Part shown: positions 1 to 35,400 of the stretch, piece by piece
Layout: every line of letters begins with the position of its first letter
How positions within the stretch are numbered: the stretch's first letter is position 1
Source of the DNA: Stramenopiles sp. TOSAG23-6
Taxonomy: Eukaryota
Assembly: GCA_900128565.1 (NCBI GenBank)
Contig: LT635936.1
Coordinates: forward strand, 1-39,882
Direction: 5' to 3'
DNA length: 39,882 bases
Notes under the pieces: model-generated
What the model was told of the DNA's origin: nothing
The model's database searches: none
Seen by the model: only the letters and a program-made list of their open reading frames with translations
Position numbers and translations under genes: made by a program

Positions 1-54
1 TTTGTACCTAACAAATTTTAGTTTTTTTTTTTGAAATATTTTTCCAAAATACAT
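1..54 (+). other. 3' part of a family intron, truncated by the window edge; probable non-canonical 3' end (...AATACAT)
   Basis: TTTGTACCTAAC (1-12) is the family core. TTTTTTGAAATATTTTTCCAAAATA is identical to the 3' end of intron 13201-13292, but it is followed by CAT rather than G. No AG follows until about 78-79, inside the conserved STGG motif. The exact end (52 or 54) is uncertain. Confidence 0.6.
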
Positions 55-1547: not shown

Positions 1548-1868
1548 TCAACCGTGTTGGAACACCAAAACACCAACACTACCGACAAAAAAATATATTG
1601 TTTTTGCTTTTTCAGCCGTAATAAAAGATCCAAATGATTTCCCTACAGCAACATGCCAAGTTCCTTGATATTTTTCATCAAATGCTGTTTTTATCAACTT
1701 TGCACAACCTTGGTAGAATTGAACTTCACCCTTTTCTTGTTGTTGCAATACTTTCTGAGCTAAACTGACTGCAAATGTAGCATATTCTTCTTGTGCATCG
1801 ATGAGAATTCGTCGAACCTTTGCATTATATAAAGCACTTTCATCTGACTTTTTTAAAACTTCTGGCAT
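1548..1868 (-). CDS. Dynein light chain, LC8/DNAL4 family
   Basis: AKLIKTAFDEKYQGTWHVAVGKSFGSFIT...IYFFVG matches the LC8 family signature; 106 aa. Confidence 0.9.
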   Translation of the reverse strand: MPEVLKKSDESALYNAKVRRILIDAQEEYATFAVSLAQKVLQQQEKGEVQFYQGCAKLIKTAFDEKYQGTWHVAVGKSFGSFITAEKAKTIYFFVGSVGVLVFQHG

Positions 1869-2278
1869 TCTAAGATATTCTGTAAAGGGTGTTTTAATTT
1901 ACCTTCTTAATGATGCTTCCTAATGTGAACTTTTTTTTTCTCCCGAGACACTTTGAATATCAGAATTCAGATTTAGATTATTGTGAGGTGTATCCTCATT
2001 CCTCAAATTATAGAATGTAACGAACAAATAGATTTCGTGTTTTGAAAAAACATTTGAAGCATAATTTGAAATTTGCCAATCAAATCTAAATCGGCAATGA
2101 TGACATTGTTTGATGTCTCTCTCTTGAGAGTCTCTCTTGACTTGCATCATGTTATAGTAATAGTCTTTTACATTGACGACTCTTTGTATTTGTATTTGAA
2201 TANTTTTTACAACATTCGTTCCCATTACATTTTAGACATTTGACATCACATAAGAACACTTTGTAGTGGTAGAACGAT

Positions 2279-4962
2279 ATGAGCATGAATAATGCTGACC
2301 ATATACCTGTTCAGCGACAATTTAGCGAGCAAGGTTATGAAAACAGCAGTGAAAGTAAAGGAAAAAGCTTCTCAATAGTCAAACCTAAAAATGACCGTGT
2401 GTCGGCAAAATTAAGAGATGCTTCTACGAGAGGGAGAATTGAAAAGAATCTTCAACCTGCAACATCATTTAAATTACTTGAACCTAAATCGTCCCGTGAT
2501 CGTTTGCGTAACAAAAACCGAAGTTTATCTGAAAATGGCGACGTATATTTAGACTATTTGACTCTGAACTTCGTTGATGGTTCCATAAGCGGAATGGCAA
2601 GTCTTTATATTACAGAAATAGAATTAAAATATAGGCAATCTCATGCATATAACTATGCGAGTACTTTTGCGTGGGTGTATGGCGCACTTGCTGTCTGGCA
2701 ACTTCTATATATAATTCTTGGTTTACTTATTATTTTCCAGGGAGAAGTTCATAATGAATGTTATTCCAGGAATATTTATAGCGTATTATTTTCATTTTCT
2801 GCCTGTTTAGCATTCTTAGCGACTGGTTTAACTTTAAAAATACAACCCCAAAATTTGTTTTCCTTTGGGAAAATGGGGGAAAGTACTCGATTACAATATT
2901 TTATCAGTGTCATGTGGATCTTTGTGACAGTAGGGTACAGAATCACATCAATGGAACTTCTTTGCGGTGGTGACGGAACTCCTAACAATGGTATTCGTGC
3001 AGGTGATATTCTTATGGTTGGATTGGGACAACAGAATATTATGTACTTACTCATGTACGTTTTCATCATTTATTATTCAATTTCAAAAAAAAAACATTTC
3101 ATACCAAATTTTGTACTAACAAATTCCAAATTTGACATATTTTTCACCAAAACATGGGCAGTTTATGCTCTGGTTTGCGGTCACCATTTGTGCTTGTCAC
3201 TTTGTGCACAATCAATTCGCTTAGTTGGTTGGAGAGTCTTTACTTTGCTTATCGACCAATGAATGATTATGATGTTATGAATTCAATAGACTCTATCCAT
3301 AACTCTCAGTTGTTACCCGTTTCTTCAACCAATAGAATTGTGCACAGCTTTGATTCTACAGAAATAAGGCAAAGTATTATCAATCTTGGAGTGGTATTAA
3401 TGGCATCATTGATGTGTTATTATATGGTTCGAAAACTTGACCAAATGAAAAGAAGTTCATTTCTCACTTTATGGCAATTGAGGGAAGCAAATGTACGTCA
3501 TGAATTTAAAATTTATTTGTTTTGTACGAAATTTTGTGCCAAAGGATTTCTTTTTGAGTTTTGATGGTGTATATTTAATCTAAATCATGAATGTAAAGTC
3601 ATTCCATAACGAATTCCTAATTGGATATATTTTTTCAAAACAAATATCGATGCTGATATACAAATAAATCCATTTGCAACGCCAAACTTACGAGCATGGT
3701 TAAGTGGTCGATCTAGTTTCCGTTTTTCGCACAATTCAAGTGAAAGAGCCTCTAGAATTGAAGCAAATAGACAATCTAGAAATTTAAGTAAATCTGGTTC
3801 CATACGTACAAATTTACGAAATTCACTTATTGATAATTCTCAATATTCTGAGAGAGGCTATAACGAAAGTAAAGATGGTACAAATAACTACAAGCTAATA
3901 TGGGATATTGAGAATAGTGGAAAATCATTAAACGACGATTCGTTTCAAAACAGAAATAAACAAATAGAAAAAAGCCGAGAATGGATGCTCCGACAACGGC
4001 AGAGACCGTCATTCAGAGGTGCAGTTCAAATCGATCACCAATGGCAAATAGAGTTTTCACGGTTAAATATTTTAGAAAAGGTTGCTTCAGGTGCTTCAGG
4101 TCAAGTATTTAAAGCAGAGTATCTAGGTGTTCCTTTAGCCGTAAAGCAAATCTTTTCCACAATGATTTCAGAAGATCTTGATGAATTTTCTCGCGAACTC
4201 TCACTCCTAGCAAAAGTTGACCGACATCCAAATGTTGTACGACTTATGGGCATAGCAAAGGAGAAACCAAAACAAAAATTACCACCTTCGTTATACATTT
4301 GTATGGAATGGGTTAATGAGAACATGGAAAAGTTATTGGAAGATTCAAAGCGAGCTCCGAAAGATCTCTCTCAAGTCAATGACCTTAAGATTGTACTGCG
4401 ATTAGCACAACAGGTTTGTGCTGCAATGGTTCATTTACATCGTCAACGATGTCTTCATCGTGATCTCAAACCAGCAAATGTGTTAATTACACCTGAAATG
4501 CATGTTAAAGTTTGTGATTTTGGTGTGTCAAATTTGGGCTCAAATATTTTCAGAAAGTCAAAAGGTAAACGAATGCAACTTGCTAGTGGTGTTGGAACGC
4601 CTGGTTATATGGCTCCAGAAATGTACAGTGCTGAGCCTGTCGTTGGCTTTGAAGCCAATGCAAAGGTAGATGTGTTTGCATTTGGAGTACTATTAGCCTC
4701 TTTATGTACCTCAAACCGACCATATGGCAATGAGATCTCAGAACTTTCCCAATGGTGGTCAATTGATCGCTGGACAGTAGCAATGCAAAATGAAGGTTTA
4801 GTACCATATCTCGAGCCTTCCTGCAAAGTACCCAAGCAATTAGCTGATTTAATAGGTCAGTGTTGTGATTTTGATCCGCTTAGTAGACCTTCTTTCAAAC
4901 GTATTTCGTCATATCTTGCTAGAATAAGTAAAACAAGTCTTCCTCGGGAAACACTCGAATGA
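2279..4962 (+). CDS. Multi-pass membrane protein with C-terminal TKL-type protein kinase; join(2279..3054,3156..3492,3646..4962), 809 aa
   Basis: Several hydrophobic helices in exons 1-2. Frame is open from 3610 to 4962. Kinase motifs ASGASGQV, LAVK, HRDLKPAN, CDFG, GTPGYMAPE and DVFAFG are present. Joined length 2430 nt is in frame. Confidence 0.8.
3055..3155 (+). other. Family intron, 101 nt, GTACGT...AACAT (in-frame AG alternative ends at 3161)
   Basis: Explains the frame shift between ORFs 2279 and 3154. Core ATACCAAATTTTGTACTAAC ends at 3120. CATG is repeated at both junctions. Confidence 0.75.
3493..3645 (+). other. Family intron, 153 nt, GTACGT...CAAAT
   Basis: Contains in-frame stops. 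Core GTACGAAATTTTGTGCC near 3524-3540; CATAAC ends at 3610. For the phase-0 donor, the first frame-compatible AG is the GAG at 3850-3852. CAAAT is repeated at both junctions. Confidence 0.7.
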
Positions 4963-5166
4963 GCAAGTATAATTGAACTTTGAGTAAAGAAACATAACTT
5001 TGCTCATCTGAAGTTTGTCAGTGAAAAACAATTCTTTTAATATACTATTACTATAAACTATTTCTGCAAGTGTTTTTATTTTACAAACCAAAGAATGGGT
5101 TTTCAAAAAAGAGTACTCTTAATAAACTTTGGTGGGGATAGTTTTCTCATATATTTGAAGACCATA

Positions 5167-7458
5167 TTAAAATCCAACAAATTCAGGATTTTTTATGTCT
5201 ACCGCCATCGTTTCTTCTCGGGTAAACTCACCTGTGATCATAGGGTTGTATTCAGATCCCATACTTTGAGTCATACGTACACTCGATTTTGTAAAAGCCG
5301 GTGGTTTATTGAAGGGTAAATTGTATTTTTTACTCTCCACTTTTTGCCAGATGATACCATCGAAATATTCATGCATTCTCAAGTCATCAAATCCGCCACT
5401 CATCATTCCTAAGCGGAGAGCAGGGTTTTTGTTGAGTAATGCAGTCACAAAACCATGAGTTGCTTTACCTTCAACGTTCGGGTGGAATGAAAGTGTTTTG
5501 TTACAATGTACAATTCGTGAAAACATAGTCATTTGATCTTCAGAAACAAATGGAGTTTGGTGGTGAATTAACTCATACGCTATAATCCCCAGTGCCCAAT
5601 AATCAACTGCTTTATTGTGACCAGTGGCAAGAATTATTTCTGGTGCCAGATATTCGGGTGTTCCAACAAGCGTGCTAGTTTTTGTTCCAGGTTTTATGCG
5701 CTTAGCAAAACCAAAATCAACGAGCTTTATGTATCCATCTTTGCAGAGTAAAATATTTTCAAGTTTTATATCACGGTGTGCAAAGCCTGCTTCGTGGACT
5801 CTCTTTAGCGCAGATGTCAAAATGGTGACATACACTCGCGCCATACTTGATTGTAAACCCCCAAGCGAAGTTCTTGGAAGATTTTTAGATGCATACATCA
5901 AGTGCCACATATCACCACCAGCAATGTATTCGGTGATAAAGTACAAGGTCTTTTCGTCTTGCCAGGTTCCGAGGAGATCCATGATAAAAGTGGATCCCTT
6001 GAAGCAAATCAGTGCATCTCTCTCACGTGTAATGTTTTCTTCCTGATTTGTATCAAGTAGATGTGATTTATGAATAGCTTTTACAGCCACGTAGTTGCCG
6101 GTAGCTTTATGAGTAGCTAAATACACGTTACCATAAGTACCTGCACCAAGCTGTCCTTCACATTTATAATCTTTGAGTGATATGCGAATATCACACTGGT
6201 CGGGACTTTGTTCTGTCGCAATTATTTCACTGGTATTTGGTACTGCATTAATTAGTTCTTTCTTGAGTTTTACCAGTTTTTCATTGTGTGCTTCAATATG
6301 AGCTGCTTGTTTTGCTCTGTTCTGCTCCTCCCGCTCTATAACAGATTGTTCGATGACTTCTTGAGGCAGTAACTTAACAAAATCATCTGCTGTCAGCTGG
6401 AGGCAAACTACTGTAGTTGAAATTACGGTCACGGTTGCCATTCGTTTTGAAATTTTGTTGTCTTTAGACAGTAATGCCATCTCCCCGAAATGATCTCCTT
6501 TTCGTAATGTGGCCACGGGTACAGTACTTTTGCGGCGACTAATATTCTTCGGGGAACATTTTTTATCATAAGAGTTTTCTTGAGGTGTCGTCTTCGTATT
6601 ACGGCGGTCTGTTGAATCTGGAGAAACTTTTTCCCGTTTCCGACGAGAAAGTATGTTTGTCAACTTAGATTTCATATTTGTTCTTTGAGTTGCATCACCA
6701 TCAAGGTCGTTATTTTCATCATAGTTACAACGAGTAGAATCTTGTGCAACTGAACAGACACCATCAAACACTATGTAGAAAGAATCACCAGCATCACCCT
6801 CTGTAATAATTTTTGTCCCTTGCTTGAACTTCTTTTCAACCATGACATCAGTCAACGCAATCAATTGTAAGTGTGAGAGACTTGAGAGTAGAGTAACTTG
6901 CTTTAAAAACCCTAGAATCTCTACCTGGCGGGATGATGCACACTGATGCATCAAGGAGCGAAATATGGATCTTGTCATTACCCAAACTGTTCCAGGCAAT
7001 GAACAAATTACACTTGCAGTCCGTGGTAACTTTGCGTTGATCAAACCTGTTTCGCCAAAAGCAAATGGTGCACCAATTACACGTTCATCGTCGCCATCAT
7101 CACCTACCCTAATATTGACTTCACCTGATTCGAGCATGAAAAATTCCTCATTATGGGTTTCATCTTTTTGGATTAAGACGTCACCTTTATTTATATCTCT
7201 TTTGAACATTGCATCAATCATAGATCTAAGCTGATACAATTCAATTGCACGAAACAGAACGTGTTTACGCAAAGTTTCTAAAATGATTTCTTTCGTCTTT
7301 GAACTTTTCTCACCAGTAGACGTTGAACTTTCATTGACTTCATCTGAAGCACAATATATATTCTCGCGTGGACAAATTTCAGTCGCTGGCTTTTGCAACT
7401 TGATCGAAGCTCGGCTTTTCCTCGATGGTATATCGATTTTTTTTGCTGATTCCGTCAT
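5167..7458 (-). CDS. cGMP-dependent protein kinase-like (two cNMP-binding domains plus AGC kinase)
   Basis: FGETGL..PRTASV and FGEMAL..RMATV cNMP cassettes; GAGTYG, HRDIKLEN, DFG, GTPEYLAPE and DYWALG kinase motifs. First ATG at 7458. Confidence 0.9.
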   Translation of the reverse strand: MTESAKKIDIPSRKSRASIKLQKPATEICPRENIYCASDEVNESSTSTGEKSSKTKEIILETLRKHVLFRAIELYQLRSMIDAMFKRDINKGDVLIQKDETHNEEFFMLESGEVNIRVGDDGDDERVIGAPFAFGETGLINAKLPRTASVICSLPGTVWVMTRSIFRSLMHQCASSRQVEILGFLKQVTLLSSLSHLQLIALTDVMVEKKFKQGTKIITEGDAGDSFYIVFDGVCSVAQDSTRCNYDENNDLDGDATQRTNMKSKLTNILSRRKREKVSPDSTDRRNTKTTPQENSYDKKCSPKNISRRKSTVPVATLRKGDHFGEMALLSKDNKISKRMATVTVISTTVVCLQLTADDFVKLLPQEVIEQSVIEREEQNRAKQAAHIEAHNEKLVKLKKELINAVPNTSEIIATEQSPDQCDIRISLKDYKCEGQLGAGTYGNVYLATHKATGNYVAVKAIHKSHLLDTNQEENITRERDALICFKGSTFIMDLLGTWQDEKTLYFITEYIAGGDMWHLMYASKNLPRTSLGGLQSSMARVYVTILTSALKRVHEAGFAHRDIKLENILLCKDGYIKLVDFGFAKRIKPGTKTSTLVGTPEYLAPEIILATGHNKAVDYWALGIIAYELIHHQTPFVSEDQMTMFSRIVHCNKTLSFHPNVEGKATHGFVTALLNKNPALRLGMMSGGFDDLRMHEYFDGIIWQKVESKKYNLPFNKPPAFTKSSVRMTQSMGSEYNPMITGEFTREETMAVDIKNPEFVGF

Positions 7459-7783
7459 AGCGTTTACCAAGTATTATTTATTTAATTCTCTTCGAATAGG
7501 GAGTTTGTAATATTATTACTGGGTCGGAGATGAACTGAGTAAGCTTCATCGAAGCTTTAAACCCAAGGCATCTTCTTGACAAGTCCGGGTAAAAAAACAA
7601 AAAAAAAGTACTTTCTTCTTGAACAAACCTGTTTTTCAAATTGGCCTGGCCAACCATCAAGAAGGCAAGTCAGTCCCTAAAAATCATAAAAATCATAAGA
7701 GAAATTTATATTCTTGAATAACATTATTATTGGAGTTTGGAAGTCCGTGACGTTGTCAGGTGAATTGAGAAGTGAAAAAAAAC

Positions 7784-8593
7784 ATGTCAACGTCGTCAAA
7801 GATAAGTGGACAAACGTGTTATTTTTGCGGGAAAATTACACTTTCTGAAATGCGTTGTGGCGGTTGTCATATGGTTTGGTACTGCAATAAGACGTGTCAA
7901 AAAAAATCCTGGAAAGCTGGGCATAAGGAAGAGTGTGCCCAATTCAAGTCTCAAAAGAAATCTAAGGGAAAAGCACTACTGGATGCAAACGCTTATGACC
8001 GTCGGGGTGCACGGTATCTAGGAAAGAGGAAGTGGAAAAAAGCCGAAGCGGAGTTTAGAAAGGCTTTATCCATATTACCACCAAGAGTTGAAGGCGAGCC
8101 ATCCATATTTTTTGAAAATCGTGCCAAAGCTTTAAATAGTATCGCCTGTGCCTTAATACAACAGGGTCGAAAAACCGAAGCAGAGAAAACATTACGCCAG
8201 TCCTTGCAAGAGTGGCCTCAATATTATAAATCTTTGTTTGATTTGGCGCAATTATTCAAAATGAGGGGAGATATAGAAAGATGTTTTAGTACACTTAAAG
8301 AAGGGATTACAGTTGATTCAACATTTAAGCCTATGATCGATATGTTTTGTGGTATGGTATTTGAAGACGTTCAAACAAAAATGAAAACAGAACCTCAACG
8401 CGCCATAGAAGTTGCAAGAGATGCCGTGTCGTTACTTCCACAAAATGTAAAATTGCGAATGGTGTGTTCGACAGCCTTAACTATGAATATGCAATTCGAA
8501 GAAGCAAAGAATGAGATTGAAGTTGCCTTAACAATCGACCCGGGTAACCAGTCACTACTTTCAACACGGGCAAAACTTAACAAAATTATTTGA
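7784..8593 (+). CDS. MYND zinc finger plus TPR repeat protein
   Basis: CYFC...CGGC...YCNKTCQKKSWKAGHKEEC is a MYND finger; TPR-like helices follow (AEAEFRKAL, ALTIDPGN). First ATG at 7784. Confidence 0.85.
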   Translation: MSTSSKISGQTCYFCGKITLSEMRCGGCHMVWYCNKTCQKKSWKAGHKEECAQFKSQKKSKGKALLDANAYDRRGARYLGKRKWKKAEAEFRKALSILPPRVEGEPSIFFENRAKALNSIACALIQQGRKTEAEKTLRQSLQEWPQYYKSLFDLAQLFKMRGDIERCFSTLKEGITVDSTFKPMIDMFCGMVFEDVQTKMKTEPQRAIEVARDAVSLLPQNVKLRMVCSTALTMNMQFEEAKNEIEVALTIDPGNQSLLSTRAKLNKII

Positions 8594-8631
8594 AATTATT
8601 AAAGATATTATTTTGTCATATATTTTATTTG

Positions 8632-11438
8632 TTAGAAAAGCATTATCCACATTATTTGGTATACTATTGCAATCACACAGACAAACACTACTATCTTTCT
8701 ATGCTTCACCACGGTAGATCTGAGTAGAGAAGTTTGATGTGAAGATATCCAGCTTCCACAACGACCTAAACCATTTATAATAATAGTTTTGAATAAATTC
8801 CACAACCAATGAAGAGTCGTGTAACAAGCTTGCAGCATTGACTTTGATGGAACATTACTACCCACTTTTTTTAAGGTTCTAACAGATCCACAACATGGAC
8901 TAAATAAAGATCGCACGATAGAAAAGCAGGCATACATAAGTTTTATAAATGGACTGAGTGTAGATGACAAGATTTTCCATAAAATTGCACCGAGAGCAAT
9001 CGGAAACTGTGCTAATTGAGCTACCATATTATAGATCAACCGAATACCATGCCAAAGTACAATAAATAGACTATTTGAAGGGATAATAACAGCAAAAAGG
9101 GAAGTGATCCTTAAGACAAAAGTTTCTTCAAACCACTGGAACCATGAACCAAATAACCAAGTGAAAAAAACACGAACGATTTCAACTTTGGAAAATAAAT
9201 CATAAAGCCCAATAAACATCATACAAATAGATGCAACCCATACACCAACTACCATCAAAGTACGCATATATTGTGAAAAAATATTTCAAAAAAAAGTCGT
9301 TACGTACAAAATTTCGTACGAAAAAAAAACTTTGAAATTGAAAAAAAAAATAAAACATACATCCACCAACGGTAAAAAATACCATAACTATTAAGGAAAA
9401 TTGCCCAGCTTGGAAGACCTGACTCACATAACTGGGTAAGTTTATCGCTGCTAAGTACGAAATGTTTTACAACAGGGTGAACCAGAGGATCACGAAATCG
9501 AATTTGTACCATTTGATTAATAATTTTTTCCTTAACAGGTTCTTTCATTGAACTAAGAATTTCTTGTTGTTGTGTAGCTCCTGCAAATCTTCGGGAGGAC
9601 CATGCAACGACATGTAATATTGCTCTCTTTATCGCATTTAAAATTTTTCGTCTAACTCCTTCGTCTTGTAATAATTCCGCATTAATACGAAGTTTACTAC
9701 TACTAATTCTATGTTTTTTACGTCTCCGAATTGCCCTATTACCAATGTATTTTCCATGTGAATTTTTCCTTGCTTTATTTTTGAATTTCCTTTTCAATAA
9801 CTCATTACTCTTTAATCTATTATTTACAGAATTACTCGAAGATTCTTTCATACCTGAAGGATTTTTTGCATCACACGAAATATCCATTTCTATATTTGAA
9901 ACTAAAGATAGAGGTATATGACCTATAGAATCATCATTACTATCTATTCCTCTATTTGGTGTATGTGGAGACACACTTGATGATGAATCTTTCATTATTG
10001 GTGAAATTTTGTTTCCGTTATTTTCAGTTGGTGTTCTATCGAAATTGTTATTTTCTGCCAGAGATTTGGGACTTTGTACATTCGAATCTGTACTAAACGA
10101 ATTTCGAATTTGTTGAATACCCTTCCTTTTCTTTTCTGTTGAAGACTCTTCAAATGCAAATTCATTCTTTTGACTATCATTACGATTACTGCGATGAATA
10201 TTATTACCTGTGATATCATTCACTTCTTCATAAACACTTGGAGGAGTGAATGGAGAATTTGGTCGATTCGTACTCAAATCATTAGATGAATTTATATTGT
10301 GATTTTCTGATTCAGGGGATAGAGAAGTATATATGGAATGTTCTCTTTTCTTCGGTGGTTTTATCTTAGGTACTGGTACATCTTGTGTTTTTGGATTCCA
10401 ATGTCTCACTAATTCACCAGTTTCAATAATTATACTTCCCATCGAAGTTATTTCATTAGTATATTTAAAACCAAAAATTTTATCAACAGGAACGATAAAC
10501 AAAGTTTGTCCAATGTATGGGTGGAATGGTGATTCCTTGAGGTGCAATTTGAATGCTCTAAATATAAAAAAAATAACAACTGATCCAAAATATATCGAAA
10601 CTCGTATTGTTAAGTACATTACGACAAATACAGAAATAATGACTGACGACCAAGCAGGAAATATTGTAGTTAACCAATCGTCATCACTCAATTTTTCTGC
10701 ATAACGTACACTTATTATAACCTGCCCGTGTTTTCCTTTTTCGTCATCATTTGAATCATCTGGGGCTATTATTTCCATAGTAAGCTGTTGACCACCAGTG
10801 CTATTAAGTCTCCACAAGCCAACCTGAAATTCATCAATGGGTAGAATGTGTCGATCTAGAGACAAACCATACCAATCTTCACCGTGGCCAGTAGCTAACA
10901 AAAGTCGACTCAATAATTCAGGTCGCATAGAAGAAACTTGGTTGATGAGATCATCATATACGTCTTTTGGGCTAAATTGCTGTGTTCCTGGACTTCTAGG
11001 AGAAGTTGCCATCGAATCAATACTAAGGCGTCGACTGACACTTTTAGAACGACAAAACTGAGAAAGTTTCCGTATGCATTCAATATCAGCGTCTCGCTGA
11101 ATTGATGGATCACCTGCAGCTTCATACGCAAGCCAATCTGCAACTCTTTCACGAACGGCCGGAGAATTTGCCCAGTCAAAAGCCCAAGAAGCAGCCTTTG
11201 ACTTCAACACATCCAAATTACGGCCAGATAGCACTGGTGTGAAAGGATTATCATCATTGCTAAACTCATAGGGACTCGATTTAGACAAATCTGCGCTACG
11301 AGTGCTTGTATTTACATCAGAATTTGCATGTTTAGATCGATTTCTACGAGAAACGGGAGTTTTTACTGGAGTTGACGAAACGCCGTTCTCAGCTCGGTTA
11401 CGTTTTGAACTCAAACGTTTTAAAACGCCTTTGAGCAT
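8632..11438 (-). CDS. Conserved uncharacterised membrane protein; join(complement 9361..11438, 8632..9265), 903 aa
   Basis: Two ORFs are joined by a family intron, giving ESGLPSWAIFLNSYGIFYRWWMRTL...IGLYDLF. This resembles a motif I recall from uncharacterised plant proteins (GxPSWxIFxxSY..YRPWMRxL..IGFYDLY). Joined length 2712 nt is in frame. Confidence 0.7.
9266..9360 (-). other. Family intron, 95 nt, GTATGT...ATATAT
   Basis: Minus strand reads GGAT|GTATGTTTTATTT...TTCGTACGAAATTTTGTACGTAAC...TTGAAATATTTTTTCACAATATAT|GCGT. Splicing restores WWM-RTL. Confidence 0.8.
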
Positions 11439-11797
11439 CTTGAGAGCAGACAATTCCACAAAAGTTTTTACGAAGTTTCAGCTTTCAGTGAATGGTATTG
11501 ATAATTATCAAAAAGTAGATTGCAATGAGATTTGCATCATCAAAACATCCAAGAAACACCAAAGATCTTCAGTGAGATAGACTTCGAAATGATATTAATC
11601 CTACAAATTAAATTATAGGCGAGTTTTCAATTCGTATTTTTTTTATTTTTTCTTCGATTTGGGATTTCGTGTAAATACTACGATTAGGGTTTATTGATTG
11701 ATGTTTTCAAGAGTCAAGTATCATCAATAATATTATAATGACAGTGACATTGCTTTTTCTTAGCTTATTGTTTACATAGATTAGCTGGTTATTGTTA

Positions 11798-14700
11798 ATG
11801 AGCCAAAAGATGGAGCATAGGTTCCAAGGTGAGGGTGTTTCTTTTAATGTAACGCAGAGTGGTTCTGTTACAACTTTGTGGTCTTCTACAGCACGTTGCT
11901 TGACTATTAACTTAAGAACGCGGGAGTTATTTGTCGAAATGTCTGTTTCAGGTTCTAAGGTGCACAAGAGTTATCCAACATCTGGTTTAACAAAGTTGAT
12001 GCCTGGTAAATCCCCTGGTTCTTTAAGTGTCAGTGTGCGTAATGAGGGTAATAAGGCTTTAAAAAAGTATAAATTTCGCGACAGTGCTAGTCGAAACACA
12101 TTTTGCAAATACATTCGATGCGCAAACCAATATGGCTATATTGTCGAGGAGTTGTATCGGAATTGTACGAATTCTTCCGAAGAACACACTGCGAGTAATA
12201 ATAGTTTATGTCCCGCTATAGATATATTTGATGACGACTTGTTATTAAAGGGTATATCGCGACTTGGATTCTCGAATCCTTCCACTCGTAAAGAACTCAG
12301 TGATTTAGTATTTCAGTTACGAAAAGTTGGTACAAAAACATCAAAAAATCTATTAACTGATAAACATTCTATTGATAATTTTCCTGTGATTACATACCGG
12401 GATATTTTTGATATATTCTGTCATTTAGTTATTGAAAACTCGATAAATTCTGGATATGGGAAGGGAAATTCTGAGAATGAATACGAAAATAGTGGGACAA
12501 ATGATTCTCCTGGTACATTTCAGAATTTGACTGCTTTAGGTCTTCAACTGCCTAAACAGGATTTGATTCCAGGAGAAAATTTTGATGAATTTCTAATTTA
12601 TGATCAAGTTTCATTATTATGGTGGCATATGTTCCCTGAAGGTAAAAGACAAGTATATGTCCATGGTCGACTTTTTATTACGCAATACCGTTTGGTGTTT
12701 CTTGCATTTAAAGCACTTCCAAGAACTTCAGGTAAAGCATCTGAAAATAGTGGAATTCGAAGATTATCAGAGGTAGCAAGTGAAACTCTTCAAGCGGAAG
12801 TACCCCTCTCTAATGTCAATTATGTAAGACAACCTCGCGATGATCCTACGTCTATTTGTCTATATTGTAAAGATCTTCGGTCTTTGACTTTTACGTTTAA
12901 CGGTTCTACAAAAGTTGTGGATAATTTTGTGAGTGTTTTGGAAAATCGAATATATTTTGAATATTTACCTAATTCGATCAAAGATTTGAAGATAGATGAT
13001 ATAAATTCAAATTCAAAAATGAATCTTACAAATGAGAAAAAAATTAAAAATTGTGAAGGTACCCGAAATCAAAATAATCTAGATAATAAAGTATTTGCAT
13101 TTATGCAACCTACACCAAAACAAAATATATGTTTAGGAAGAATACGTGCTGACACAAGGGGAAAAAACAGTACAAGGCTTCCCGACTTTTCATCTGAATG
13201 GTATTTTTTATTTTTTTTCAATTTTTGAATTTATTTTTCATACGAAATTTTGTACCTAACGGATTATTTTTTGAAATATTTTTCCAAAATAGGTCTTCAT
13301 ATAATCCCATAAATGAATTTCATCGAATGGGTCTCTTAGATATTTCAATGCAGGAAACATCGAATCAAAAAGATAATATTTTTGATCTTTCTATTTCATC
13401 CAATCCACAAAGTGAGACACCAAACTCAACGAGAAACAACGTTCATAATTCATGTAATTTAAATGTAAATAGAAATGACCTCGAATTTTCAGTACCACAA
13501 AATCATTCTCAATGGCGTTTGTTTCATAATATTAATTTTAAAACAAGTCCAACATATCCTGAATATTTGATCATACCCAACACGCAACTTTTCTCAGATG
13601 AAGATTTATCTGCTGTATGTGCGTGGAGATCAAAAGCGAGATTTCCAGCTGTTACGTGGCATTGTCGTAAAAGTGGTGTTATTTTAGCTCGTTCGGCAAT
13701 GCCATTGAGAGGTCGAGCAGGTATGTCAAATTGTAGAGCTGATGAAAATCTTTGTGACATTTATCGAAAATCTGTGATAAATAGTTATGGAAGTACCACT
13801 CATGTAAATACTGAAAATAAACAAAGAATATCTCCAAAAACTTATATGAAAACACCAGGTAAACCTTCAAATAGACGGCGGATTTTTGGTAGTAAATGGA
13901 ATCCAGATTATGAAACTTCACGAAATCGATCAGTAAGTCAAGAATCACTTTCTAGTACTCCAGCATTTGTGGTGATAGATTGTCGTCCAGCAATTAATGC
14001 AAAAGCAACACAGATTATCAAAGGCGGGGGTGAAGAAAAAGCTTCAAGATATCAAAATACAACTTTAGAAAGGCTATATATAGAAAACATACACGAAATG
14101 CGTAATTCCCTTGTTGAGCTTGCAAAGATATGTCTTCCTGGTTCAATAAGCGATGATGATAATAATTGGTTGTCAGATGTACAAAATACTGGTTGGTTGC
14201 GGCATATCCGGATGGTATTGGCAGGATCTGCTCGCGTCGCTCAACTACTTATTGCAGAAAATACATCTGTTTTGGTTCATTGCAGTGATGGATGGGATAG
14301 AACTGCTCAAATATGTGCTACAGCTCAGTTGTTAGTTGATCCGTACTATCGTACTCTGGAAGGTTTTGGCGTCCTAGTAGAAAAAGATTGGTTGTCATTT
14401 GGCCATAAATTTCATGATAGAATAGGACATGGTCAGCGACCAAGAAAAGGTGACTATGTACATTTTCATCATTAGTTTCAAATTCATTTTGTTTTGTATC
14501 AAATTCTGTAACTAACAAACTTCAAATTTTATATATGTTTTACAAGATATACTCACGGTGGTGGTGGGTTCTTTGCTTCACGAGAAGCTTCGCCAATATT
14601 CACACAATGGATAGATTGTGTCTGGCAGCTGACGCGGCAATTCCCTACTGCATTTGAATTCAGTGAAAGAATGCTCATCTTCGTTGCAGACATGTCATCC

Positions 14701-15109
14701 TCATGTCGTTTTGGTAATTTCTTATGTAACTCAGAACGAGAAAGATCAGAACTTAATGTGAAGCAGAAAACTCCATGTATCTGGTCATATATATGTAGCC
14801 GAAATCATCATAGGAATAACAAATCAAATCGAGAACTTTTTAGTAATCCATGTACGTAATCATTTATTATTCATTTCAATTGTTTTTTGTACCAAATGTT
14901 GTACCTAACGAATTTTAAATGTAACAATTATTCCCAAAAGTACATGCTATCGAAAGGTGGATAGACCATTGTATCCCTCCACTTCACCGAAACGATTAGT
15001 GCTGTGGGATAAATTGTATCTTCGATTCGACCCAGCCTTATCCATTCCCGGGTCCGATGATGAAACTTGGGAAGGTAAATCAAGAGTTTTATCTCCTAGA
15101 GCTAGGTAG
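11798..15109 (+). CDS. Myotubularin-family PI3P/PI(3,5)P2 phosphatase with GRAM-like domain; join(11798..13200,13293..14457,14551..14851,14946..15109), 1010 aa
   Basis: GRLFITQYRLVF (GRAM-like), WSSYNPINEFHRMG, RSKARFP, catalytic HCSDGWDRT, EKDWLSFGHKF, SPIFTQWIDCVWQL, FGNFLCNSERER, NPCY and LWDKLYLRF. Joined length 3033 nt is in frame. Confidence 0.9.
13201..13292 (+). other. Family intron, 92 nt, canonical GT-AG
   Basis: TG|GTATTT...ATACGAAATTTTGTACCTAAC...CCAAAATAG|G restores the conserved W in WxxY. Confidence 0.9.
14458..14550 (+). other. Family intron, 93 nt, GTACAT...GATAT
   Basis: In-frame stop at 14473-14475; ACTAAC ends at 14516; the AG at 14545-14546 is out of frame; TAT is repeated at both junctions. 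A 135-nt canonical alternative (14450-14584) exists. Confidence 0.65.
14852..14945 (+). other. Family intron, 94 nt, GTACGT...TACAT
   Basis: Restores NPCY (myotubularin NPxY). CCTAAC ends at 14909; CATG is repeated at both junctions. A canonical alternative (14856-14940) gives NPCTTCY. Confidence 0.7.
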
Positions 15110-22536: not shown

Positions 22537-23358
22537 CAGGGTTGCATGGGCACGGCCGTTCCGAAGAATTTTTCGGAACGGGCAAAAATTTTATTCCCGT
22601 TCCGGAATGATTTTTCGGAACGGGCAAATATTTTATTCCGTTCCGAAATGATTTTTCGGAACGGGCAAATATTATATTCCCGTTCCGGAATGATTTTTGC
22701 AGATTTCGCGGAACGGGCAAATATTATATTCCCGTTCCGGAAGAATTTTGCGGAACGGGAATGGACCGGAACGGAATGAAGCTTTTGTTCCGGTTTTGTT
22801 CCTTTTAAACCCTAACCCTAATAATTTCGAATTTATTTTTTTCGTACGAAATTTTGTACCTAACAAAAAAATCAAAGTTTTGGAATATCGCCCGTGGACA
22901 AATCTGCTCAGATTTACCCGACTACCTTAACAAAAAAAAATCACAAAAAAAATTTCAAAAAAGAAATCTCATAGTAGTATCACGTGAACATTGTAGTATA
23001 AATGAATACTAGTAAAAAGAAAAGAATCAAAAATAAAATTTTATCTTCAAATTTTGATTATCCATAAATTAAATAGGCAAAATGTAATATTTCATTTTTG
23101 TGCCCGTTCCGCCGTTCCGCACTCTAGTGCGGAACGGGCAAATATTTTATTCCCGTTCCGAAATGATTTTTCGGAACGGGCAAATATTATATTCCCGTTC
23201 CGGGCAGATTTTGCGGAACGGGCAAATATTATATTCCCGTTCCGAAAAATTTTGCGGAACGGGAATGGACCGGAACGGGAACGGAATGGACCGGAACGGG
23301 AACGGAACGCAGTTTTGTTCCCAAAAAAATCAGCGAAAATTGTGCCCGTGCAACCCTG
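22537..23358. mobile_element. Non-autonomous hAT-type DNA transposon (MITE), 822 bp
   Basis: TIRs CAGGGTTGCATGGGCAC (22537-22553) and GTGCCCGTGCAACCCTG (23342-23358) match at 16/17. Perfect 8-bp TSD CGGGTGAA at 22529-22536 and 23359-23366. Subterminal arrays of CGGAACGG/CCGTTCCG; no transposase ORF. Confidence 0.92.
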
Positions 23359-32408: not shown

Positions 32409-35400
32409 TCATCTATATCTTTTTACAAGCCGTTCAAACAAAAGCTGTGGATTATCAATGCAATGCTCCACAACCTCATCAATAAAATTAATGTCTGACA
32501 ATTTTGAAGGACAATAAACTTCATAGTATTTTCTAACTCTTTCGGTTAAAGCTACTTTTCTCTCTTCTAAACTTAATCTTCCTGATTGATCACTTGTACC
32601 TTCTGCTACAGTTTCACTATTAGATACTGTAATCGCTGGCACACTAGTCATACTTTTCGTTGAAGAGAAAAGCGATGTCGGAACAATAGTTGTACTTGTC
32701 TCTTCCAGGGATAGCGTTGATGGCACACTGGTCGTACTTGTCTCTTCCAGGGATAGCCCTGATGGCACAATGGTCGTACTTGTCTCTTCCAGGGATAGCA
32801 TTGATGGCACACTGGTGAAACTTGTTTCTTCCTGGGATATCGTTGATGTCACACTGGTTACATTTTTCTCTTCTAAGGCGGGCATCATTGGGGTACTCAA
32901 GTTGGAATGATTTATTGAATCGTGCATTGATTGTTTTGCGTTTTTTAACTGTAGTTTCAATTCTGTGTTTTCTTCTTCTTTCTGGATTAAAAATATATTA
33001 GTTTCTTCCAATTGGTGATTTCTTTGAAGATTCAGCTCTTGCACATTTTTACCGATTTCTATTTGTCTCAACAGTTTTGCACCCATGCTTTTACGTAGCA
33101 GTGTTGTTTCTTCTTCCATTTTTCTCATCTCATTATTTCTACTTTCGAGCTCTCTTTTAAGCATAATATTAGTCTGATTTTGAAATTTATGATTAAACTT
33201 CTCTTTCGCAGTTTCATTCTGCATTATATTTTCAATTTTTGTTTTCATTTGTGTTTCCATTTCATCAATAGTTTCATGTATTCCTCTAGCATGCATTGCT
33301 TCCATATGCTCCTTTGTAGCGTCAATCTCTAAACCCATACTATTTCGCATCATTTCTTCCTCCAGATGTTTCTCTTTTTCTATTTCTACTTCAACTGCTT
33401 TGCGTACTGCTTCAATAGATTTCTGGTACTCTTGTTCCTGAATAAAATTGGCTTCTTTTTGTAACGCAAGATTAGCACTGTGTTCTTGCATTAAGAGTTC
33501 TATTACGTCATTATGCTTTTTCTGATTCAACGTGGTAGCGATATTACGATCATGTATTTCTTTTGCATGGATTGCTTCCATATACTCCTTCGTATCATTA
33601 ATTTCTGAAGCCAAACTATTACGTATCATTTCTTCTTCCAGATACTTCTCTTTTTCTATTTCTGCTACAGCTTCTTTGTAAGCTGCTTCAATAGATTTTT
33701 GGTACTCTTGTTCCTGCATGACATTGGCTTCTTTTTGTAAGGCAAGATTGTCACGATTCTTGTGCATTAAGTTTTCAACTTTCATATTCATTTGTACTTC
33801 CATTTCGGCAATAGTGTCATTAATGCCTAACATATGCATCGCTTCCATATGCTCCTTTGTAGCGTTAATTTCTGATACCATACTATTGCGCATTATTTCT
33901 TCTTCCAGGCGATTTTCATTTTCCATTTCTAATACAGCTGATGCTACCATATTCTTTGAAGCTTCTAAAGCAGTTTTTAATCTTTCATTGTGTTGAAAAG
34001 TTTCAAATTCAGTCTGTTTTACTTTATATAAATTTTCTTCCATCTTACACTTTATTAATTTATGCATTTCGCCCATTTCACTAATTTTAGAATCTTTCTC
34101 AATCAAATTATTTTCGTTGTTTCGTAATTTTTGGTGCAGTCCTTGAACAATTTCATGTTCCTGTTTCTGGAGTATGGCATGTTTATTTTCTGTATGAATA
34201 TTAGCTGCTTTCAACTTGTTTACTGCTTCTTTTATGGAGGTTTTCAAATTCTTTGCTGAAAATTTCTTCATTTGGGCATTTTCATTCTGCAATGTCAATA
34301 ATTTTGATTTTAAAAATACTACATCGTTTTTAGGATCACTTTTGCCCTCCTTTATTTCTATCTCTTTTGATTGTAAACTATTATTTGATGCAGACTTGAG
34401 CCTTTCCTGAAGGATAATCATAACACCTTGAATTTTCTCCTTTGTGAGCTTAAGATCTTCCATGATATCGGACATTTTTGATTCTGTGTCTACGTCAGTT
34501 ACATTAACGACTTCTTTTAACGCAGCACTAATTGCTGACGACATTGAACTTTCATTGGCCAACCAAATGTCGTTGTGTTTTTTCTTTTTTGCTACTTCGG
34601 CTAAATACTCACTTTTAAGATTTTCATTGTGCAGAAGTGTTGTCCGCATATTCTGTTGAAGTGCATCACATTCTCCCTTACTTTGCGTTTGCAATACATT
34701 GTGTTCCTCCTGCAAGAGATCTATATGCATTTTGTATTTATTTGTACTTAATGTTGCTGTGGACATTTCTTGTTGTGCAACAGCAAGATCATCTTGAAGG
34801 GATTGCAATGTTTCTTTCAGTCGAATGCATTCTTTCGAAGCCTCTTTTGCATCAGCATCTGAATACATTGCTAGAGTATGGTGTTCCAACATGTCTTCAT
34901 ATTTATCTAGTTGGTCAAGGAATGCGTCTTTATCTTGGGTTAAATCATCAATCTGTTTTTTAGACTCCTCATACTCGAGCATTACACTTGATAAATGATT
35001 TTGGGATATTGAAAGATCATCTTCAAGGCGAGCTTGCAAATCTCCCACTTGCTGTAAACTATTTTTATGCATATGAATCTCACTCTTAGCTTCATCACGA
35101 TGTTTCCTTGCTATATCTAATTCATTTAAGGAGTAATTTAATTTCTCCTTTACATTATCTAATTCCACAATAGACTCAGCTTTATAGTCTTGAAGTAGCT
35201 TTAGTTCCTCTTGAAAATGCCTACACTCTTCCGATTTATATTCAGCATACGCCTTTATTTCATTTGACTCTTGTGCCCATTCATTGCATCTACGTTCTGC
35301 TAATAAACATCGATTTCTGACAGAGTTTTCATCGGACCAATCTTCTATTTGTTTTTTTGCTCTTTCTCGTTCTTTACCATTTATTGCATTACTAGAATTT

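What the first reader, a model, noticed from the sequence alone, without database searches (positions are those of the whole stretch)
3052..14946. Intron 3' end copies the end of the upstream exon (junction direct repeats)
Seen: each complete intron is bracketed by a short direct repeat: CATG (3052-3055/3153-3156), CAAAT (3488-3492/3641-3645), ATG (minus-strand intron), GGT (13200-13202/13292-13294), TAT (14455-14457/14548-14550) and CATG (14849-14852/14943-14946). The last intron base equals the last upstream-exon base in 6/6: all AT-ending introns follow an exon ending in AT, and the one AG-ending intron follows an exon ending in G. Inference: either the acceptor derives from a target-site duplication, as in introner elements, or splicing requires the match. 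The true register is therefore ambiguous: GT-AT, a one-base shift (TG...HA), or AT-AN (ATGTAY...AC/AA/AT). The AT-AN reading recalls U12 ends but lacks the RTATCCTT donor.
Basis: partly seen in the sequence, partly recalled or inferred. Interest (0 to 1): 0.85.

Follow-up and report, generated by a model that had tools for sequence, protein, structure and literature searches.

The report
Repeated introns ending in AT, not AG
All the introns in this stretch of a marine protist genome are copies of one ~95-base mobile-element-like sequence, and most appear to end in AT (a copy of the last bases of the preceding exon) instead of the near-universal AG, which, if confirmed by RNA data, would be an unusual splicing rule.

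Summary
All six repeat pairs sit at the stated coordinates. Removing one repeat period restores the long reading frame in 6 of 6 introns.

All seven genic introns, six complete and one cut by the window start, belong to one sequence family of 92-153 nt. It has GTAYGT at the 5' end, a YTAAC branch box and a T-rich/CCAAAA tail, and every copy lies in sense orientation. The family core is about 10^2-10^3 times deeper than unique sequence in independent metagenome DNA.

Protein homology fixes two junctions in the myotubularin gene:
- i3 is an ordinary GT-AG intron.
- i5 must lose exactly 94 nt. No register of that removal gives GT-AG, and an AG 5 nt upstream is skipped.

Best reading (about 0.55): an introner-like, transposon-derived family. 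The element supplies GT and the branch site, and the intron's 3' end is the duplicated target (N)AT, giving GT-AT.

The U12 reading is not supported.

Gaps: no spliced RNA was seen, the genome is not held, and attempts to enlarge the sample failed. The exact register, the choice between target-site duplication and a fixed splice consensus, and the genome-wide rule all remain open.

Verdict: a new variant of a known kind (compare Micromonas introners and Fritillaria TAC-derived 3' sites).

The parts
1..54 (+). i0: 3' part of a family intron cut by the window start. It ends ...CCAAAATACAT|G, and the exon (ALDH-like ORF) starts at 55.
   Evidence: nhmmer hit 2-49, E = 0.012. Branch box TTGTACCTAAC at 2-12. 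Sequence. In metagenome DNA, 26 (X3) and 17 (X4) contigs resemble it up to position 55 and then diverge (table 7).
3055..3155 (+). i1: 101-nt family intron, GTACGT...ACAT. Direct repeat CATG at 3052-3055 and 3153-3156. Branch box TACTAAC at 3114-3120.
   Evidence: Removal restores the frame. A canonical alternative, GT...CAG 6 nt further on (107 nt), is also in frame. X3 DNA contig 2874-3339 keeps it. RNA-run contig X7 2769-3134 runs 80 nt into it unspliced.
3493..3645 (+). i2: 153-nt composite intron made of two partial family copies. Its 5' site comes from the first copy; the branch box CCATAAC and the tail come from the second. Direct repeat CAAAT at 3488-3492 and 3641-3645.
   Evidence: Two nhmmer hits: 3499-3546 (profile positions 7-64) and 3547-3640 (12-91). 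Frame restored. An equally long repeat lies at +20 but is out of frame.
9266..9360 (-). im: 95-nt family intron on the minus strand, GTATGT...ATAT. Repeat AT(+G). Branch box GTACGTAAC. An alternative in-frame 3' end (GAT|G) lies at 9254.
   Evidence: Independent nhmmer hit, E = 6.7e-08. Sequence. Frame restored. Alternative at +12.
13201..13292 (+). i3: 92-nt family intron with canonical GT...AG. Repeat GGT at 13200-13202 and 13292-13294.
   Evidence: The junction builds a Trp codon (TG|G) where all 20 printed homologues (of 26 aligned) have G-W, followed without a gap by the x-x-aromatic-(D/E/N/K)-P motif.
14458..14550 (+). i4: 93-nt family intron, GTACAT...ATAT. Repeat TAT at 14455-14457 and 14548-14550. 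An AG 4 nt upstream of the end would be out of frame.
   Evidence: X3 DNA contig 13262-14908 keeps it. Homology is ambiguous. The loop between GHG and SPIF is 9 residues in 107 of 109 homologues, 21 here, and 6-7 with a canonical alternative that uses a donor 8 nt upstream.
14852..14945 (+). i5: 94-nt family intron, GTACGT...GTACAT. Repeat CATG at 14849-14852 and 14943-14946. Termini form a 7-bp palindrome-type pairing. An AG lies 5 nt upstream of the end.
   Evidence: Homology: exon 4 ends on the conserved N-P (60/60, 57/60) and exon 5 starts on the conserved Y/F (60/60), with exactly one column between them, which is the split codon. Duplex -9.0 kcal/mol against -2.8 for shuffles, P = 0.002.
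22824..22883 (+). Truncated, degenerate copy of the family core (includes TTGTACCTAAC) in an intergenic region. It lacks both splice ends and abuts CCCTAACCCTAA (22810-22821).
   Evidence: nhmmer E = 1.8e-07, profile positions 23-77. Sequence.

Best explanation
The introns are copies of one short, mobile, introner-like (MITE-like) element that has colonised the genes of a compact marine stramenopile. The best protein hit carries a MAST-3-type source label.

How it most likely works:
- The element brings its own 5' splice site (GTAYGT), a U2-type branch box (TACTAAC/YTAAC) and a T-rich tail.
- It inserts at (C)AT(G)-like targets and duplicates 2-4 bases of the target.
- The major spliceosome removes the element plus one copy of the duplication. 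The intron therefore starts with the element's GT and ends with the duplicated exon bases (N)AT. This gives GT-AT introns and restores the original reading frame exactly.
- One copy (i3) has a canonical AG.

Shown here: family membership, copy number, sense orientation, frame restoration, and two junctions fixed by protein homology.

Inferred: transposition with target duplication, the GT-AT register, and use of the major spliceosome.
For: 1. One family.
- A profile built from 4 introns finds the other 3 genic copies and 1 intergenic copy (E from 6.7e-08 to 0.012).
- Nothing else in 39.9 kb scores below E = 0.07, apart from a second piece of i2.
- Mean column identity is 70% over the whole length, not only at the splice signals.

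2. Copy number.
- Local depth on the core is 8026 (X3) and 3005 (X4), against about 7-8 and 4-6 for unique contigs, in two independent DNA metagenomes (tables 4 and 8).

3. Orientation.
- All 7 genic copies are in sense orientation. No other interrupted ORFs were found in the window.

4. Frame.
- Removing one repeat period restores the frame in 6 of 6 introns.
- The repeat position predicts the frame in 6 of 6 (P = 0.0014).

5. Junctions fixed by homology.
- The i5 junction leaves exactly one residue between N-P and Y/F (57-60 of 60 homologues). This is a 94-nt removal whose five possible registers are CA-TA, AT-AC, TG-CA, GT-AT and TA-TG, none of them GT-AG.
- The same gene's i3 is validated as GT-AG. 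The 5' G of GTAYGT is therefore the natural common register.

6. Base -3 varies, and it matches between exon end and intron end in 4 of 5 AT introns (P = 0.033).

7. Weak terminal inverted repeats.
- The reverse complements of the 3' ends of i0 and i5 match CATGTAYGT with 1 mismatch.
- Summed end-duplex energy is -27.6 against -17.2 for shuffles (P = 0.006).

8. A dead, truncated copy lies outside genes.

9. Precedents exist for a 3' site made from a duplicated target: Micromonas introners and Fritillaria introns preceded by exonic TAC (passages of PMC11282704).
Against: - No spliced RNA was seen. Of 121 joints found by read laying only 15 were printed, and none is an intron removal.
- One RNA-run contig (X7, 2769-3134) carries i1 unspliced.
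- The intron core is only about two-fold less enriched over unique sequence in the RNA runs (1401 against about 2.4-3.7) than in DNA (8026 against about 8). Those libraries therefore show DNA or unspliced RNA, not splicing.
- Canonical in-frame GT/GC-AG alternatives exist for all six introns.
- For i4, the GT-AT reading gives a 21-residue loop where 107 of 109 homologues have 9.
- Many copies share the same CAT(G) 3' end (table 7). That fits a fixed consensus as well as it fits a target preference.
- The inverted repeats are short, and only i5's is individually significant.
- There are only seven introns, and the covariation rests on two informative cases (i2, i4) against one mismatch (im).
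- No intron-less allele was found to prove a duplication.
Confidence: 0.55

Rival explanations
1. Fixed splice consensus, not a duplication. This lineage's spliceosome recognises CAT|GTAYGT at the donor and CAT|G at the acceptor, the mirror of the ordinary CAG|GTAAGT...CAG|G with T in place of G. A changed U1 5' end could cause this. The family may have spread by reverse splicing into matching proto-splice sites. The 'direct repeat' is then just two copies of a consensus.
For: - Exon ends are AT in 5 of 6 introns, and intron ends are AT in 6 of 7.
- In metagenome DNA, 26 + 17 contigs share i0's end through ACATG before diverging (table 7). CAT(G) therefore behaves as part of the family consensus.
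- The downstream exon starts with a purine in 7 of 7 introns.
- Ordinary introns show the same exon-end/intron-end likeness (AG|G).
Against: - The -3 base co-varies (AAT/AAT, TAT/TAT) instead of staying C (4 of 5 match, P = 0.033).
- i2 shares 5 bases.
- Weak terminal inverted repeats and a dead intergenic copy point to a DNA element.
- The U1 gene could not be examined because no genome is held.
Confidence: 0.22
2. Different register. The true introns are AT-AC/AA/AT (cut two bases upstream), removed by a U12-like spliceosome or by a U2-type AT-AC pathway.
For: - The register cannot be fixed from mRNA.
- With a -2 shift, i0, i1 and i5 read AT...AC, and i5 has the perfect terminal palindrome ATGTAC...GTACAT.
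- U12-type splicing tolerates AT-AN and GT-AT ends (passages of PMC1557818).
Against: - i3, a family member validated by homology, does not allow a -2 shift.
- No RTATCCTT lies at any intron start: none of the 4 window matches.
- The branch box is U2-like and lies 33-43 nt from the 3' end.
- GTAYGT is a good U2-type donor.
- No minor snRNA was found in the window, though 40 kb says little.
Confidence: 0.07
3. Ordinary GT-AG introns that were misread. The real splice sites are nearby canonical pairs, and the AT ends and repeats are artefacts of choosing in-frame ends in AT-rich DNA.
For: - In-frame, stop-free GT/GC-AG pairs exist for all six introns. Examples are i1 GT...CAG at +6 and i5 GTAATC...AAAAG. 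A deposited gene model (P0002) uses the latter.
- AT is not a uniquely shared in-frame dinucleotide.
- For i4, the canonical pair with a donor at -8 gives a loop of 6-7 residues, closer to the homologues' 9 than 21 is.
Against: - The canonical pairs sit at inconsistent offsets from the conserved family positions: 5' shifts from -38 to +31 and 3' shifts from -5 to +59. Their number is about what chance gives.
- With the conserved donor, the first AG after the branch box is in frame in only 2 of 6 introns (read).
- For i5, the canonical alternative puts T where 60 of 60 homologues have Y/F and breaks N-P-x-Y/F.
- The deposited model translates intron i3 and invents a micro-exon in i4. This shows that forcing GT-AG fails here.
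Confidence: 0.08
4. Non-spliceosomal excision. The palindromic ends pair and bring the two cut sites together, as in euglenid non-conventional introns or Amoebophrya introners. Another enzyme activity then cuts and rejoins the RNA. Alternatively the DNA itself is excised.
For: - The ends are more complementary than shuffles (sum P = 0.006).
- The repeat units AT and CATG are self-complementary, so exon end and intron end can pair.
- AT ends cannot be chosen by simple scanning, because many ATs precede them.
Against: - The GTAYGT donor and CTAAC branch box are conserved in sense orientation.
- The consensus fold is negligible: -1.58 kcal/mol, with no helix joining the ends.
- End pairing is significant only in i5.
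- Independent metagenome DNA contigs keep i1 and i4, so there is no sign of DNA excision.
Confidence: 0.05

Closest known systems
Introner elements of Micromonas pusilla and Aureococcus anophagefferens (Huff et al. 2016, recalled; described in passages of PMC11282704, and PMC7789003)
   Same: - Many homologous short introns sit in unrelated genes.
- Short (about 3-nt) direct repeats lie at the borders.
- One splice site is carried by the element and the other is made in the duplicated target.
- It occurs in a marine picoeukaryote; Aureococcus is also a stramenopile.
   Different: - Those families splice at canonical GT/GC-AG sites and have clear inverted repeats of constant length.
- Here 6 of 7 copies end in AT, the inverted repeats are weak, and the element carries a yeast-like branch box.
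Non-canonical MITE-derived introns of the tunicate Fritillaria borealis (Henriet et al. 2019; seen only as described in PMC11282704)
   Same: - The intron's 3' end copies the end of the upstream exon. There, exonic TAC is said to have formed the 3' site.
- Non-AG acceptors, including AT, are processed genome-wide, apparently by the major spliceosome.
   Different: - Fritillaria donors are also non-canonical (AG-AC, AG-AT) and the introns are diverse.
- Here the donor is a conserved GTAYGT and all the introns seen are one family.
Amoebophrya introners (PMC7789003, passages) and euglenid non-conventional introns (PMC11282704)
   Same: - Direct repeats of 3-5 nt overlap the exon/intron borders, which makes the register ambiguous.
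- The ends are complementary.
   Different: - Those lack any dinucleotide rule and rely on 8-20-nt inverted repeats or hairpins.
- Here GT, a branch box and A at the penultimate position are conserved, and end pairing is at most 7 bp.
Rare GT-AT and AT-AN introns of animals and plants (PMC1557818, passages)
   Same: GT-AT termini can be spliced. Examples are a U2-type GT-AT intron conserved between human and mouse, and 7 U12-type GT-AT introns.
   Different: - Those are isolated exceptions, a handful per genome, and most have U12 signals.
- Here GT-AT would be the majority class, with U2-type signals.

Membership tests
Introner elements (transposon-derived intron families) | Many introns in unrelated genes share sequence over their whole length | tested here: met
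   7 genic copies lie in 4 genes. Core depth is about 10^2-10^3 times that of unique sequence in two DNA metagenomes.
Introner elements (transposon-derived intron families) | Target-site duplication flanking the element | tested here: inconclusive
   Direct repeats of 3-5 nt occur at 6 of 6 introns, placed in frame (P = 0.0014). The -3 base matches in 4 of 5 (P = 0.033). A shared CAT(G) consensus could also produce them, and no empty site was found.
Introner elements (transposon-derived intron families) | Terminal inverted repeats | tested here: inconclusive
   The 3' ends of i0 and i5 are reverse complements of CATGTAYGT with 1 mismatch. The summed duplex energy gives P = 0.006, but only i5 is individually significant.
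Introner elements (transposon-derived intron families) | Canonical GT/GC-AG splicing, as in the described Micromonas and Aureococcus families | tested here: not met
   Only i3 ends in AG. The homology-fixed i5 junction allows no GT-AG register.
Introner elements (transposon-derived intron families) | Evidence of recent mobility (presence/absence between strains, an autonomous partner) | not tested
   The genome is not held. The metagenome scan returned only unrelated loci.
U12-type (minor) introns | RTATCCTT donor | tested here: not met
   There are 4 matches in the window (2.5 expected) and none lies at an intron start. The donors are GTAYGT/GTACAT/GTATTT.
U12-type (minor) introns | TCCTTAAC branch site 10-26 nt from the 3' end (range recalled) | tested here: not met
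   The branch boxes are TACTAAC, ACCTAAC, ACGTAAC, AACTAAC and CCATAAC. They lie 33-43 nt from the proposed 3' end (counted).
U12-type (minor) introns | U11, U12, U4atac and U6atac snRNA genes in the genome | not testable with these tools
   No genome is held. Rfam finds no snRNA in the window.
Fritillaria-type non-canonical introns | Intron 3' end formed from a copy of the upstream exon end | tested here: met
   The last base matches in 6 of 6 introns. The last two bases (AT) match in 5 of 6.
Fritillaria-type non-canonical introns | Non-canonical donor (AG-AC / AG-AT) | tested here: not met
   All six complete introns start with GT in the only register common to all of them.
Amoebophrya / euglenid hairpin introns | Long (8-20 nt) inverted repeats joining the intron ends, with no conserved splice signals | tested here: not met
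   The consensus fold is -1.58 kcal/mol with no helix joining the ends. The best end duplex is 7 bp, in i5 only. GT and the branch box are conserved.
DNA-level eliminated sequences (ciliate IES type) | The sequence is missing from part of the organism's DNA | tested here: inconclusive
   Contigs of an independent DNA metagenome keep i1 and i4 (X3 records 2 and 7). No intron-less DNA form appeared among the 15 of 121 joints shown.

The most novel reading that the evidence does not exclude
In this MAST-3-type stramenopile, GT-AT is the standard intron type genome-wide, in the order of a thousand introns that all descend from one element. Its major spliceosome chooses an AT acceptor even when an AG lies 4-6 nt upstream. 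The acceptor is not found by scanning. It is specified by its identity with, or pairing to, the last bases of the upstream exon. That would be a new rule for defining the 3' splice site.
Probability: 0.25. Interest if true: 0.85.

Novelty: new variant of a known kind. Interest (0 to 1): 0.62.

Why it matters
1. The near-universal AG acceptor is read by fixed contacts in the spliceosome's catalytic centre. A free-living lineage in which most introns end in AT, with a normal GT donor and a yeast-like branch site, would be a clean natural experiment on how the 3' splice site is chosen. So far, mainly Fritillaria and Amoebophrya offer anything comparable.

2. It would add a heterotrophic marine stramenopile to the organisms in which a single transposon-like element created essentially the whole intron complement. 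That supports intron gain by transposition.

3. There is a practical consequence. Gene prediction that insists on GT-AG corrupts the proteins of this organism. The deposited model of the myotubularin gene translates one intron, invents a micro-exon in another and adds two residues at a third. Published proteomes and gene counts for this lineage are therefore probably wrong wherever an intron occurs.

Tried and rejected
- Whole genome: not held. No genome-wide contingency test and no snRNA search were possible.
- RNA evidence.
  - Only 15 of 121 joints were printed. All 15 are links between different family copies, and none is an intron removal.
  - RNA cover of this organism is about 2-4x in short contigs.
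  - This is no verdict on splicing.
- Enlarging the intron sample.
None resembles the family (best nhmmer E = 0.045).
  - A 23-base gapped motif found 1 chance match in a bacterial MAG.
  - The same motif found 0 matches in viral contigs.
- Transcript-derived proteins spanning junctions.
  - A search with exon 4 (100 aa) gave no near-identical fragment: 7 candidates, none at E <= 1e-30.
  - A profile of read-through intron translations, run against 1.84 billion representatives, found only the known model P0002 plus 3 other hits. The two I fetched are unrelated repeat proteins; the third (P0123) I did not look at.
- Conserved RNA structure: the consensus fold is negligible.
- Pfam on the exons flanking i1, i2 and im: no domain spans those junctions, so homology cannot fix them.
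- A simple acceptor rule ('first AT after the T-rich box') fails for im, i4 and i3, read.
- Known RNA families: nothing reached gathering score. There were three weak chance-level hits in an intergenic hairpin array. No tRNAs were found.
- Literature: no paper in the held library joins MAST-3 with 'introner' or with 'introns' plus 'non-canonical'.
  - The main text of the MAST single-cell genome paper has no occurrence of 'splice'.
  - Supplements are closed and were not seen. They may hold intron statistics.


Full report
**What the window is.**
The window is 39.9 kb of gene-dense, intron-poor eukaryotic DNA at 33-40% GC, with long uninterrupted ORFs of up to 1796 codons. The large exon of a myotubularin-type phosphatase (P0001) finds thousands of homologues. 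Its best hit, P0002, carries the source label eukprot:GSMAST32..., which suggests a MAST-3-type marine stramenopile. P0002 is the same gene under a faulty model. It translates intron i3, builds a micro-exon inside i4, and uses GTAATC...AAAAG in i5.

**Checking the observation.**
In the register that starts with GT, the six complete introns are:
- 3055-3155 (101 nt)
- 3493-3645 (153 nt)
- 9360-9266 on the minus strand (95 nt)
- 13201-13292 (92 nt, GT-AG)
- 14458-14550 (93 nt)
- 14852-14945 (94 nt)

Removing each one joins the flanking ORFs without a stop. Keeping any of them gives a stop or a frameshift. A seventh intron is cut by the window start and ends ACAT|G at position 54.

Repeats of 3 nt or more are rare at arbitrary positions nearby, 25 of 366. 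I then searched a 20-nt zone anchored on the conserved T-run rather than on the reading frame. The longest repeat there lies in frame in 6 of 6 introns, against a chance of 0.0014.

The caveats are these:
- The minus-strand intron has a second in-frame, AT-ending candidate 12 nt further on.
- In AT-rich sequence, AT is not a uniquely shared in-frame dinucleotide.

A profile built from four introns recovers four further copies:
- the minus-strand intron (E = 6.7e-08)
- both halves of the composite i2
- the partial i0
- a truncated copy in an intergenic region at 22824-22883, next to CCCTAACCCTAA

The alignment has 70% mean column identity along its whole length. It shows GTAYGT at the start, a TTGTAC(N)TAAC box and a GAAATATTTTTCCAAAA-like tail. 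All seven genic copies are in sense orientation. I found no intron of any other kind in the window.

Contigs of two independent DNA metagenomes were laid on the window. Local depth on the core reaches 8026 and 3005, against about 8 and about 5 for unique sequence. The family therefore has in the order of hundreds to a thousand copies per genome equivalent. The caveat is that depths from related organisms add up. DNA contigs from those metagenomes run straight through i1 and i4, so the introns are real DNA and not an assembly artefact.

**Are the ends really non-canonical?**
ORF continuity fixes only the intron length modulo 3, and canonical in-frame GT/GC-AG pairs exist for every intron. Those pairs lie at scattered offsets from the conserved family positions, and their number is about what chance predicts. 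With the conserved donor, the first AG after the branch box is in frame in only 2 of 6 introns.

Protein homology settles two junctions in the myotubularin gene.
- **i3.** The split codon TG|G builds the Trp that all 20 printed homologues (of 26 aligned) have before the x-x-aromatic-(D/E/N/K)-P motif. i3 is a normal GT-AG intron.
- **i5.** I aligned 60 homologues, the first 60 of 62 that carry the C-terminal part, out of 119 hits. Exon 4 ends on the conserved N-P (60/60 and 57/60). Exon 5 begins on the conserved Y/F (60/60). Exactly one column lies between them, and the split codon fills it.
  - This fixes a 94-nt removal inside the CATG repeat.
  - Its five possible registers read CA-TA, AT-AC, TG-CA, GT-AT or TA-TG, never GT-AG.
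  - The AG 5 nt upstream of the end is not used with the conserved donor, because that pairing would be out of frame.
  - The canonical pair used in P0002 puts Thr where 60 of 60 homologues have Y/F.
- **i4** is ambiguous. The GT-AT reading gives a 21-residue loop where 107 of 109 homologues have 9 residues. A canonical pair with a donor 8 nt upstream gives 6-7.
- **i1, i2 and im.** No conserved domain spans their junctions.

**Register.**
The mRNA is the same for any register inside a repeat. i3 allows only shifts of 0 or -1 among upstream shifts, so the only registers common to all family members are GT...A(T/G) and its one-base shift. GTAYGT is a good U2-type donor and the branch box is TACTAAC/CTAAC-like. 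The U12 features are absent:
- There is no RTATCCTT at any intron start.
- The branch box lies 33-43 nt from the 3' end.
- No minor snRNA is in the window, although 40 kb says little.

**Why the 3' end copies the exon end.**
Three explanations remain.

(a) *Target-site duplication by a transposon-like introner.*
- The variable base at -3 matches between exon end and intron end in 4 of 5 AT introns: CAT, AAT, TAT and CAT match, while GAT/TAT does not (permutation P = 0.033).
- i2 shares five bases.
- The 3' ends of i0 and i5 are reverse complements of the 5' consensus CATGTAYGT with one mismatch.
- End complementarity exceeds shuffles overall (P = 0.006), though only i5 is individually strong.
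- i2 is a dimer of partial copies, and a dead copy lies outside genes.
- The duplication could be 2 bases (AT), 3 (NAT) or 4 (NATR). The data cannot say which.

(b) *A fixed consensus, CAT|GTAYGT...CAT|G.* This mirrors the ordinary CAG|GT...CAG|G. In metagenome DNA, 26 + 17 contigs share i0's end through ACATG before diverging (table 7). CAT(G) is therefore either a strong target preference or part of the functional consensus.

(c) *Pairing.* AT and CATG are palindromes, so exon end and intron end can also pair. The consensus fold, however, shows no helix joining the ends.

I rank (a) first at about 0.55 and (b) second at about 0.22.

**What is not shown.**
- No spliced read was seen.
- One RNA-run contig carries i1 unspliced.
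- The intron core is almost as enriched in the RNA runs as in DNA. Those libraries therefore do not inform on splicing.
- All attempts to enlarge the sample failed.

**Comparison with what is known.**
- Introners with roughly 3-nt duplications, in which the element gives one splice site and the duplicated target gives the other, are known from Micromonas and from the stramenopile Aureococcus.
- Fritillaria introns are described as preceded by exonic TAC that formed the 3' site.
- Amoebophrya introners have 3-5-nt direct repeats over the borders (passages of PMC11282704 and PMC7789003).
- GT-AT ends are known only as rare exceptions (PMC1557818).
- I found no paper in the held library linking MAST-3 to introners or to non-canonical introns. 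The main text of the MAST single-cell genome paper never mentions splice sites. Its supplements could not be seen.

**Verdict.**
It is best read as a new variant of a known kind: an introner family with a canonical donor and branch site and a duplication-derived AT acceptor. RNA junctions and a genome-wide covariation test would decide it.

Noticed in passing
window 22556-22759 and 23128-23263: Two arrays of a 42-nt hairpin-forming tandem repeat (CGGAACGGG...CCCGTTCCG type, 3.3-4.7 copies). They lie in the intergenic region between two divergent genes and flank the dead intron-core copy. They give only weak chance-level Rfam hits. This may be a second small repeat family or a promoter element.
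   Followed up: partly
window 22810-22821: Two telomere-like units, CCCTAACCCTAA, lie inside the contig. They abut the 5'-truncated intron-core copy at 22824-22883.
   Followed up: no
P0002 versus window 13198-15106: The deposited protein model of the myotubularin gene is corrupted by forcing canonical splice sites. It starts inside intron i3 and translates it. It skips low-complexity coding stretches as if they were introns, makes a micro-exon in i4, and adds two residues at i5. Other gene models for this organism are likely affected in the same way.
   Followed up: partly
window 3493-3645: Intron i2 is a dimer of two partial family copies (profile positions 7-64 and then 12-91). The branch box of the first copy is degenerate. 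This suggests nested insertion or tandem duplication.
   Followed up: partly
window 9254-9266 (minus strand): The minus-strand intron has two in-frame AT-ending acceptor candidates 12 nt apart (TAT|G and GAT|G). The farther one gives the longer repeat with the exon end.
   Followed up: partly
window 1548-1898 (minus strand): A small intron-less ORF looks by eye like an LC8-type dynein light chain. It was not run against Pfam.
   Followed up: no
window 19106-19424 and 20022-20199, inside the 1796-codon ORF; 32692-32858, inside the 1466-codon ORF: In-frame tandem repeats of 159, 57 and 42 nt lie within very long coding ORFs.
   Followed up: no
window 39167-39367 and 2203: The assembly has a gap of 201 N and a single N. 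The minus-strand ORF at 38455-39159 runs into the gap.
   Followed up: no
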